Below, piece after piece: positions 56,371-56,663 of a DNA stretch of 64,000 bases (within the stretch, counting starts at the first letter, position 1; every line of letters begins with the position of its first letter). The DNA lies in NCBI RefSeq assembly GCF_044324785.1, contig NZ_CP172127.1; one strand, 5' to 3'. This DNA is from Escherichia coli. GTDB taxonomy: Bacteria; Pseudomonadota; Gammaproteobacteria; Enterobacterales; Enterobacteriaceae. The position numbers were made by a program, and so were the translations under genes. A model generated the notes under the pieces. That model was not told the origin of the DNA and searched no databases. It saw only the letters and a list, made by a program, of their open reading frames with translations.

Positions 56371-56400
56371 TGCGGATATTTACACTCGCCGCAACTCTTC

Positions 56401-56436
56401 GTAGGTCGGGTAAGACGCGCCTGCGTCGCATCCGGC
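56401..56436. repeat. REP-like palindrome between yjaB and the rrn terminators
   Basis: gtaggtcgggtaagacgcgcctgcgtcgcatccggc. Confidence 0.6.
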
Positions 56437-56451
56437 CTTTTTCTGCACCAG

Positions 56452-56483
56452 CGCAAAAAGGCCCAGTCTTCCGACCGGGCCTT
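56452..56483 (-). terminator. rRNA operon terminator T2
   Basis: Minus strand reads gcccggtcggaagactgggcc followed by tttttgcg, the second hairpin downstream of the 5S gene. Confidence 0.7.
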
Positions 56484-56617
56484 CTGCTTAATTTGATGCC
56501 TGGCAGTTTATGGCGGGCGTCCTGCCCGCCACCCTCCGGGCCGTTGCTTCGCAACGTTCAAATCCGCTCCCGGCGGATTTGTCCTACTCAGGAGAGCGTT
56601 CACCGACAAACAACAGA

Positions 56618-56660
56618 TAAAACAAAAGGCCCAGTCTTTCGACTGAGCCTTTTGTTTTAT
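56618..56660 (-). terminator. rRNA operon terminator T1
   Basis: Minus strand reads caaataaaacaaaaggctcagtcgaaagactgggccttttgttttatctg, essentially the classical rrnB-type T1 hairpin immediately 3' of the 5S rRNA. Confidence 0.85.
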
Positions 56661-56663
56661 TTG

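What the first reader, a model, noticed from the sequence alone, without database searches (positions are those of the whole stretch)
56371..56663. yjaA is absent: the rrn terminators run almost directly into yjaB
In K-12 the gene yjaA (b4011, one of the Clermont phylotyping markers) lies between the 5S gene and yjaB. Here that interval is only 293 bp and consists of T1, a partial 5S-like segment, T2 and a REP-like palindrome; no ORF of about 127 aa fits. The strain is therefore yjaA-negative at this locus.
Basis: partly seen in the sequence, partly recalled or inferred. Interest (0 to 1): 0.35.

Follow-up and report, generated by a model that had tools for sequence, protein, structure and literature searches.

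The report
Common yjaA-less rrnE–yjaB allele
The stretch is the ordinary transcription-termination tail of the rrnE ribosomal RNA operon running straight into yjaB, a yjaA-lacking arrangement shared by about half of all complete E. coli genomes and already used as a strain-typing marker.

Summary
On the minus strand, 5S rRNA ends at 56664 and the convergent yjaB ends at 56370. The 293 bp between them hold terminator T1, a spacer, terminator T2 and one REP element. No yjaA is detectable anywhere in the 64-kb window by tblastn, blastn or the Clermont primers.

The state is not unusual. 2790 of 5426 complete E. coli genomes have yjaB contiguous with 5S like this, and 2594 carry yjaA.

It is a replacement rather than a clean deletion. 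Here 285 bp of generic rrn tail, 92-95% identical to the K-12 rrnA, rrnB and rrnD tails, stands where K-12 has 512 bp holding its own terminator plus yjaA.

The order 5S-terminator-yjaA-(yjaB)-metA is conserved in Kosakonia, Phytobacter, Salmonella salamae and Pectobacterium. So yjaA-plus is ancestral and this allele is derived.

The "5S-like segment" is only a 13-nt copy of the 5S 3' end. In silico, the window is arpA-positive (400-bp amplicon) and yjaA-negative, which fits phylogroups A, B1 or D. Absence of yjaA from the whole genome cannot be tested from one window.

This is a known polymorphism of low interest.

The parts
56664..56783 (-). 5S rRNA gene (rrfE), last gene of the rrnE operon
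   Evidence: Rfam RF00001 at 56666-56781, 92.8 bits. The 120-nt mature sequence was read directly.
56617..56660 (-). Terminator T1: 20-bp hairpin followed by a U-rich tract, immediately after 5S
   Evidence: Terminator scan. Fold dG -30.9 kcal/mol, z -8.96. Homologous to T1 of K-12 rrnB, rrnA and rrnD.
56509..56616 (-). Structured spacer between T1 and T2, with the same sequence as in the K-12 rrnA, rrnB and rrnD tails. It is not significantly 5S-like.
   Evidence: 94.7% identity over 245 nt to rrnB, 91.9% over 296 nt to rrnA, 92.9% over 241 nt to rrnD. No 5S similarity beyond chance.
56491..56508 (-). Duplicate of the 5S 3' end (AACTGCCAGGCAT) plus CAAAT. It forms the 5' part, in rRNA sense, of the 53-nt direct repeat 56456-56508 / 56624-56676.
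   Evidence: Direct repeat D1, 89% identity, spacing 168 nt. 13-nt exact match to 5S.
56453..56487 (-). Terminator T2: GC-rich hairpin plus UUUUU
   Evidence: Fold dG -30.8 kcal/mol, z -5.59. Positionally homologous to T2 of K-12 rrnA, rrnB and rrnD. Not flagged by the simple scan.
56403..56438 (-). Single REP element between T2 and yjaB
   Evidence: The REP core GCCGGATGCGRCGY matches at 56423-56436, one of 6 copies in the window against 0.2 expected. Weak naRNA4 (REP-derived) Rfam match, E 0.019. A REP sits at the same position in SE11, A10, MS 69-1, E1V33 and the K-12 rrnA tail.
55927..56370 (+). yjaB, a GNAT acetyltransferase, convergent with rrnE
   Evidence: 95% amino-acid identity to K-12 YjaB. 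NF007807 at 277 bits.
56366..56650 (.). Segment with no K-12 rrnE counterpart. These 285 bp stand where K-12 has 512 bp (its own terminator, yjaA and a spacer). The breakpoints fall just past the 5S 3' end (about 13 nt downstream, at window 56651) and in the last codons of yjaB.
   Evidence: The K-12 alignment breaks at window 56651 and 56365. The tail sequences were compared.
49864..50263 (.). In-silico aceK-arpA amplicon of the Clermont quadruplex marker: 400 bp with 0 mismatches. arpA is the ORF at 47698-49884.
   Evidence: Primer search. ORF list. Primer sequences checked against PMC7656184.

Best explanation
The interval is the transcription-termination tail of the rrnE operon, in the yjaA-less allelic form that is common in E. 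coli. Its order is 5S, T1, structured spacer, T2, REP, then the 3' end of the convergent yjaB.

T1 and T2 are intrinsic terminators that stop the highly expressed, antiterminated rRNA transcript before it can run antisense into yjaB. This function is inferred from homology to the characterised rrnB T1-T2 region. The REP/T2 hairpins probably also bound the 3' end of the yjaB mRNA, which is likewise inferred.

The allele is derived. The ancestral arrangement was 5S, a single terminator, yjaA, yjaB, metA. In this lineage the rrnE-specific terminator and yjaA were replaced by the generic rrn tail that also sits behind rrnA, rrnB and rrnD. The most likely route is ectopic recombination or gene conversion between rrn operon ends, after which the allele spread and re-assorted among lineages by homologous recombination. 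The replacement and its polarity are shown. The recombination mechanism is inferred.
For: Anatomy of the interval.

No yjaA.

K-12 order and breakpoints.

The tail is the same module as at other rrn operons. It is 94.7% identical to K-12 rrnB, 91.9% to rrnA (REP included) and 92.9% to rrnD.

Frequency: 2790 of 5426 genomes have yjaB contiguous with 5S, and 2594 of 5426 carry yjaA.

Polarity: yjaA sits between the 5S terminator and yjaB/metA in several outgroups.
- Kosakonia and Phytobacter diazotrophicus, 65-66% amino-acid identity.
- Salmonella enterica subsp. salamae.
- GCA_002421005.
- Pectobacterium versatile, where 23S and 5S lie directly upstream.

An intermediate exists. Strain HH45 has a T2-type terminator fused to a 5'-truncated, frameshifted yjaA remnant.

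Alleles move by recombination. In E. whittamii, yjaA-yjaB is 98.96% identical to K-12, while the adjacent metA-aceB is 93.5%.

Long and short yjaA-less forms differ by exactly the 168-bp unit bounded by the 53-nt direct repeat.
Against: No termination assay or RNA 3'-end data are available. T2 was not picked up by the simple terminator scan.

The yjaA-less state also occurs in S. diarizonae, S. arizonae, Citrobacter and other Escherichia lineages. A relic of a yjaB-REP-T2-5S arrangement sits at rrnG in K-12 and in Citrobacter. The yjaA-less form is therefore old, and the number and timing of loss events is not resolved.

Gene conversion needs homology on the yjaB side, and none was identified there.
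Confidence: 0.9

Rival explanations
1. The yjaA-less arrangement is ancestral, and yjaA is a horizontally acquired insertion in K-12, B2 and related lineages.
For: yjaA has a patchy distribution. Many outgroups lack it: S. diarizonae, S. arizonae, Citrobacter, E1V33 and probably E. albertii. An old relic of the yjaA-less arrangement sits at rrnG.
Against: The syntenic order 5S-terminator-yjaA-(yjaB)-metA-aceB is seen in Kosakonia, Phytobacter, S. salamae, GCA_002421005 and Pectobacterium. YjaA identities of 54-72% decline roughly in step with the YjaB and metA identities. A decaying yjaA remnant is present in HH45.
Confidence: 0.06
2. This is an assembly artefact. The rrnE tail was mis-assembled from another rrn operon (rrnA, rrnB or rrnD), collapsing yjaA out of the sequence.
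For: The T1-spacer-T2 module is repeated at several rrn operons, and such repeats are hard to assemble.
Against: The unique junction REP to yjaB stop is continuous. The same arrangement is found in the complete genome of N3 (98-99% identical) and in 2790 complete genomes. Nowhere is there a fragment of yjaA or of the K-12-type terminator.
Confidence: 0.02
3. yjaA is present in this strain but has moved elsewhere in the genome, so the strain would still type as yjaA-positive.
For: Only 64 kb of the genome was seen. A few public genomes have up to 3 yjaA places, and one place is on a plasmid.
Against: yjaA is essentially single-copy, with 2604 places in 2594 genomes. The counts for yjaA-bearing genomes (2594) and genomes with yjaB contiguous with 5S (2790) sum to 5384 of 5426, consistent with mutually exclusive states.
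Confidence: 0.03

Closest known systems
E. coli rrnB T1-T2 tandem terminator region (also behind rrnA and rrnD in K-12)
   Same: The order is the same: 5S, T1 hairpin, a spacer of about 110 nt, T2 hairpin. Identity is 94.7% over 245 nt to rrnB and 92.9% over 241 nt to rrnD. It is 91.9% over 296 nt to rrnA, including the REP after T2.
   Different: The module lies behind rrnE, where K-12 has a different single terminator followed by yjaA. The T2 stem sequence is GGCCCGGTC/GACTGGGCC here and GGCCATCC/GGATGGCC in K-12. The 40 bp between the REP and the yjaB stop codon are shared only with strain N3 among the loci aligned.
yjaA-negative genotype of the Clermont triplex/quadruplex phylotyping scheme
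   Same: There is no yjaA.1b/2b amplicon and no yjaA gene at the canonical locus. arpA is positive with a 400-bp amplicon (primers per PMC7656184; scheme per PMC6113867).
   Different: Only two of the four markers lie in the window, so no phylogroup can be assigned. From my own recollection of the Clermont 2013 table, arpA+ yjaA- fits A, B1, D or E. Both group-E allele-specific arpA primers have 3'-terminal mismatches, which argues against E.
Short yjaA-less allele (yjaB-REP-T2-5S, 114 bp), as in strain MS 69-1, a phylogroup D (ST69) strain by my recollection, and in Escherichia sp. E1V33
   Same: The REP and the T2-type terminator abut yjaB in the same way, and there is no yjaA.
   Different: The window carries the long form. 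It has an extra 168-bp unit (spacer plus T1) bounded by the 53-nt direct repeat.

Membership tests
yjaA-negative locus (Clermont marker absent) | No YjaA-family coding sequence between rrfE and yjaB | tested here: met
   The interval is 293 bp, shorter than the 384-bp gene. The best tblastn E-value for YjaA anywhere in the window is 4.9. The only long ORF through the interval matches no NCBIfam family, whereas K-12 YjaA scores 177 bits on NF041448.
yjaA-negative locus (Clermont marker absent) | No 211-bp amplicon with primers yjaA.1b/yjaA.2b | tested here: met
   No primer site within 3 mismatches in the window. The same primers give 211 bp on the K-12 locus. Primer sequences were checked in PMC7656184.
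yjaA-negative locus (Clermont marker absent) | yjaA absent from the whole genome | not testable with these tools
   Only the 64-kb window is available. yjaA is essentially single-copy in public genomes.
rrnB-type T1-T2 terminator region | Stable hairpin plus U-tract directly after the 5S gene (T1) | tested here: met
   20 pairs, dG -30.9, z -9.
rrnB-type T1-T2 terminator region | Second hairpin plus U-tract about 170 nt downstream (T2) | tested here: met
   dG -30.8, z -5.6, followed by UUUUU. The pattern scan did not flag it.
rrnB-type T1-T2 terminator region | Sequence homology to the K-12 rrnB, rrnA and rrnD tails | tested here: met
   92-95% identity over 241-296 nt.
rrnB-type T1-T2 terminator region | Termination of rrn transcription in vivo | not testable with these tools
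   This needs Term-seq or reporter assays.
REP (repetitive extragenic palindrome) | Imperfect palindrome with the GCCGGATGCG(R)CG core, present in many intergenic copies | tested here: met
   The core matches at 56423-56436, one of 6 copies in the window against 0.2 expected. It folds as a hairpin with dG -16.2, but the z-score is only -0.9.
Partial 5S rRNA gene / 5S pseudogene | Recognisable match to the 5S covariance model or to 5S sequence beyond a short word | tested here: not met
   No RF00001 hit in 56371-56665 at E<=10. Only 13 nt are identical to the 5S 3' end, and the rest scores below the shuffle mean.

The most novel reading that the evidence does not exclude
The presence or absence of yjaA at rrnE may be an ancient polymorphism that crosses species boundaries. 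Both states occur in Escherichia and in Salmonella enterica subspecies, and a relic of the yjaA-less form is fossilised at rrnG as the small ORF yfiS. On this reading the polymorphism is repeatedly regenerated or shuffled by gene conversion between rrn operon tails and by inter-lineage recombination. rrn operon ends would then act as recombination hot spots that erase or restore neighbouring genes.
Probability: 0.3. Interest if true: 0.3.

Novelty: already known. Interest (0 to 1): 0.1.

Why it matters
The practical value is small. It gives two of the four Clermont markers for this strain (arpA+, yjaA-). It also documents what physically stands at the locus in yjaA-negative strains, which is a generic rrn terminator tail rather than a clean deletion.

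The comparative side results illustrate how rRNA operon ends remodel their neighbourhood. These are the ancestral 5S-yjaA synteny reaching back to Pectobacterium, the long, short and intermediate alleles, the recombinant E. whittamii allele, and yfiS as a relic of yjaB. None of them changes the verdict that the finding itself is ordinary.

Tried and rejected
- **5S-like segment.** I looked for a partial 5S match with Rfam at E<=10 and by local alignment against shuffles. Only the 13-nt 3'-end word is shared, so I rejected 'partial 5S gene'.
- **The 150-aa ORF at 56370-56822.** I tested it as a possible gene. It matches no NCBIfam family and is antisense to 5S, so I rejected it.
- **Literature on the structural basis of the polymorphism.** Searches for yjaA+yjaB+phylogroup and for yjaA+rrnE found nothing relevant. 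The yfiS search found only a benchmark paper.
- **Whole-genome yjaA status through the closest complete genome (N3).** The search tool cannot be restricted to one record, so I did not attempt this.
- **Outgroup scan.** The genome-contig scan with YjaB recovered only 26 loci. It missed E. fergusonii, E. marmotae, E. ruysiae and S. enterica subsp. enterica. Outgroup sampling is therefore incomplete, and loss events were not counted.
- **Assembly artefact.** Considered and rejected; see the rival explanations.

Full report
**What is there**

Rfam places a complete rrn operon on the minus strand: 16S at 60136-61677, tRNA at 59978-60050, 23S at 56877-59781 and 5S at 56666-56781. By sequence, the 120-nt mature 5S ends at 56664. 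A 147-aa ORF at 55927-56370 on the plus strand converges on it. This ORF is 95% identical to K-12 YjaB and matches the YjaB equivalog NF007807 at 277 bits. metA follows at 54841-55770, then aceBAK, arpA at 47698-49884, iclR and metH.

**Anatomy of the interval, in rRNA sense**

- T1 lies directly after 5S. It is a 20-pair hairpin with a U-rich tail at 56617-56660 (dG -30.9 kcal/mol, z -9).
- A structured spacer of about 110 nt follows at 56509-56616.
- Next comes an 18-nt copy of the 5S 3' end plus CAAAT, at 56491-56508.
- T2 is at about 56453-56487 (dG -30.8, z -5.6, followed by UUUUU). The simple terminator scan did not flag it.
- One REP element is at about 56403-56438. Its core pattern has 6 matches in the window against 0.2 expected, and there is a weak match to the REP-derived naRNA4.

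The junction of the 5S end with a terminator is duplicated as a 53-nt direct repeat, 89% identical, with 168-nt spacing. Outside the 13-nt word, the spacer is no more similar to 5S than shuffles, and the 5S covariance model finds nothing at E<=10. A 150-aa ORF crosses the interval, but it is antisense to 5S and matches no family.

**Is yjaA absent?**

Yes, within the window. The K-12 record confirms the recalled order rrfE-yjaA(b4011)-yjaB(b4012)-metA. tblastn with K-12 YjaA, and blastn with the K-12 rrfE-yjaB interval, find nothing in the window; the best E-values are 4.9 and 0.095. The Clermont yjaA primers give 211 bp on K-12 but have no site within 3 mismatches in the window. The aceK/arpA primers give a perfect 400-bp product at 49864-50263. 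Primer sequences were checked against PMC7656184, and the scheme against PMC6113867.

Both group-E allele-specific arpA primers have 3'-terminal mismatches. The partial genotype is therefore arpA+ yjaA-. By my recollection of the Clermont 2013 table this is compatible with A, B1 or D (or E, which is disfavoured). chuA and TspE4.C2 lie outside the window.

**Nature of the difference from K-12**

K-12 aligns to the window up to 56651, about 13 nt past the 5S end, and again from 56365, in the last codons of yjaB. Between these points the window has 285 bp, and K-12 has 512 unrelated bp. The K-12 segment holds its own single terminator (CCCCGGTCCATAAGGCCGGGG plus a T-run), yjaA and a spacer. This is an allelic replacement and not a simple deletion.

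The window's tail is the generic rrn tail. It is 94.7% identical over 245 nt to K-12 rrnB T1-T2 and 92.9% over 241 nt to rrnD. It is 91.9% over 296 nt to rrnA, including the REP after T2.

**How common is it?**

Of 5426 complete E. coli genomes, 2790 have yjaB and 5S contiguous as here. 2594 carry yjaA, almost always as a single copy.

The yjaA-less allele comes in two forms:
- a long form of 283-295 bp, seen in the window, N3, the B1 strain SE11 and A10;
- a short form of 114 bp, seen in MS 69-1 (phylogroup D/ST69 by my recollection) and Escherichia sp. E1V33.

The short form lacks exactly the 168-bp unit bounded by the 53-nt repeat. Strain HH45 is an intermediate, with a T2-type terminator fused to a 5'-truncated, frameshifted yjaA remnant.

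**Polarity**

yjaA sits between a 5S-proximal terminator and yjaB/metA in several outgroups:
- Kosakonia sp. S29 and Phytobacter diazotrophicus (65-66% amino-acid identity);
- Salmonella enterica subsp. salamae (63%);
- GCA_002421005 (72%);
- Pectobacterium versatile, without yjaB, where 23S-5S lies immediately upstream.

The yjaA-plus arrangement is therefore ancestral, and the yjaA-less one is derived.

Loss is widespread. It is seen in S. diarizonae, which has the same long REP-T2-spacer-T1 form at 92% over 334 nt. It is also seen in S. arizonae, Citrobacter spp., E1V33 and other Escherichia lineages.

Recombination moves the alleles. In the E. whittamii representative, yjaA-yjaB is 98.96% identical to K-12, while the adjacent metA-aceB is only 93.5%.

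**Mechanism**

I infer that the rrnE-specific terminator plus yjaA were overwritten by ectopic recombination or gene conversion from another rrn operon tail, with rrnA-type the closest in architecture. The long and short forms then interconvert by unequal exchange between the 53-nt repeats. Functionally, the region terminates the rrnE transcript before it runs antisense into yjaB. It probably also defines the 3' end of the yjaB mRNA. This function is inferred from homology to the characterised rrnB T1-T2 region (established knowledge: Brosius et al. 1981; Orosz et al. 1991, from memory). None of it was tested here.

**Verdict**

The feature is a well-known, very common polymorphism. The only corrections are:
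- it is a replacement by a generic rrn tail and not a deletion;
- the "5S-like" part is 13 nt;
- strain-level absence of yjaA cannot be shown from one window.

Interest is low.

Noticed in passing
L004 726-788 (K-12 NC_000913 2725925-2725987, yfiS, next to rrfG); compare window 56311-56370: The annotated 20-aa small protein YfiS (MEVGKLGKPYPLLNLAYVGV) is a relic of the 3' end of a yjaB-like gene. It is 86.7% identical to the last 60 nt of yjaB. A REP, a T2-type terminator and 5S follow it, giving a fossil copy of the short yjaA-less arrangement at rrnG. Citrobacter sp. NCU1 (L032) has the same fragment between kgtP and 5S.
   Followed up: partly
L010 3001-3965 (Escherichia whittamii Sa2BVA5): yjaA-yjaB is 98.96% identical to K-12, and YjaA is 100% identical at the amino-acid level. 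The adjacent metA-aceB is only 93.5% identical. This suggests a recent recombinational import of the yjaA-bearing allele across Escherichia lineages.
   Followed up: partly
L038 1432-1827 (E. coli HH45, NZ_CP116411): A third allele. 5S is followed by a T2-type terminator fused to a 5'-truncated, frameshifted yjaA remnant that is about 90% identical to K-12. It looks like an intermediate in yjaA loss. Only 7 of the 2594 yjaA-matching genomes have under 80% coverage.
   Followed up: partly
L002 12001-12477 (E. coli N3, closest relative): N3 has one G fewer than the window in the G-run just before the yjaB stop codon. Its yjaB is annotated as 477 nt instead of 444, so it reads on into the spacer before the REP.
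   Followed up: no
window 1-56370: The window has no close relative among 5426 complete E. coli genomes. The best match is 98.6% for 1-15000 (including PCN033 and an O7:H15 ST70 strain, which I recall as phylogroup D; not checked here). For 40000-56370, N3 alone reaches 99.1% and all others are at most 97.9%. The strain seems to belong to a sparsely sampled lineage.
   Followed up: partly
window 56366-56370 versus L001 7681-7686: The allele breakpoint lies inside the last codons of yjaB. The C-terminal residue and stop codon therefore differ between alleles...YVGG-TAA here...YVGA-TAG in K-12...YVGE-TAA in SE11, A10 and MS 69-1.
   Followed up: no
window about 33950-39660: By collinearity with N3, the window carries a sorbose-type PTS operon (regulator, SDR oxidoreductase, PTS IIA-IID, sorE) between rluF and pepE. 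From memory, K-12 lacks this operon; I did not check that here.
   Followed up: no
window 59789-59897: There is an Rfam StyR-44 match (122 bits) between the tRNA and the 23S gene on the minus strand. It lies in the 16S-23S spacer just upstream of 23S, which I believe is its usual position, so it is unlikely to be an independent gene.
   Followed up: no
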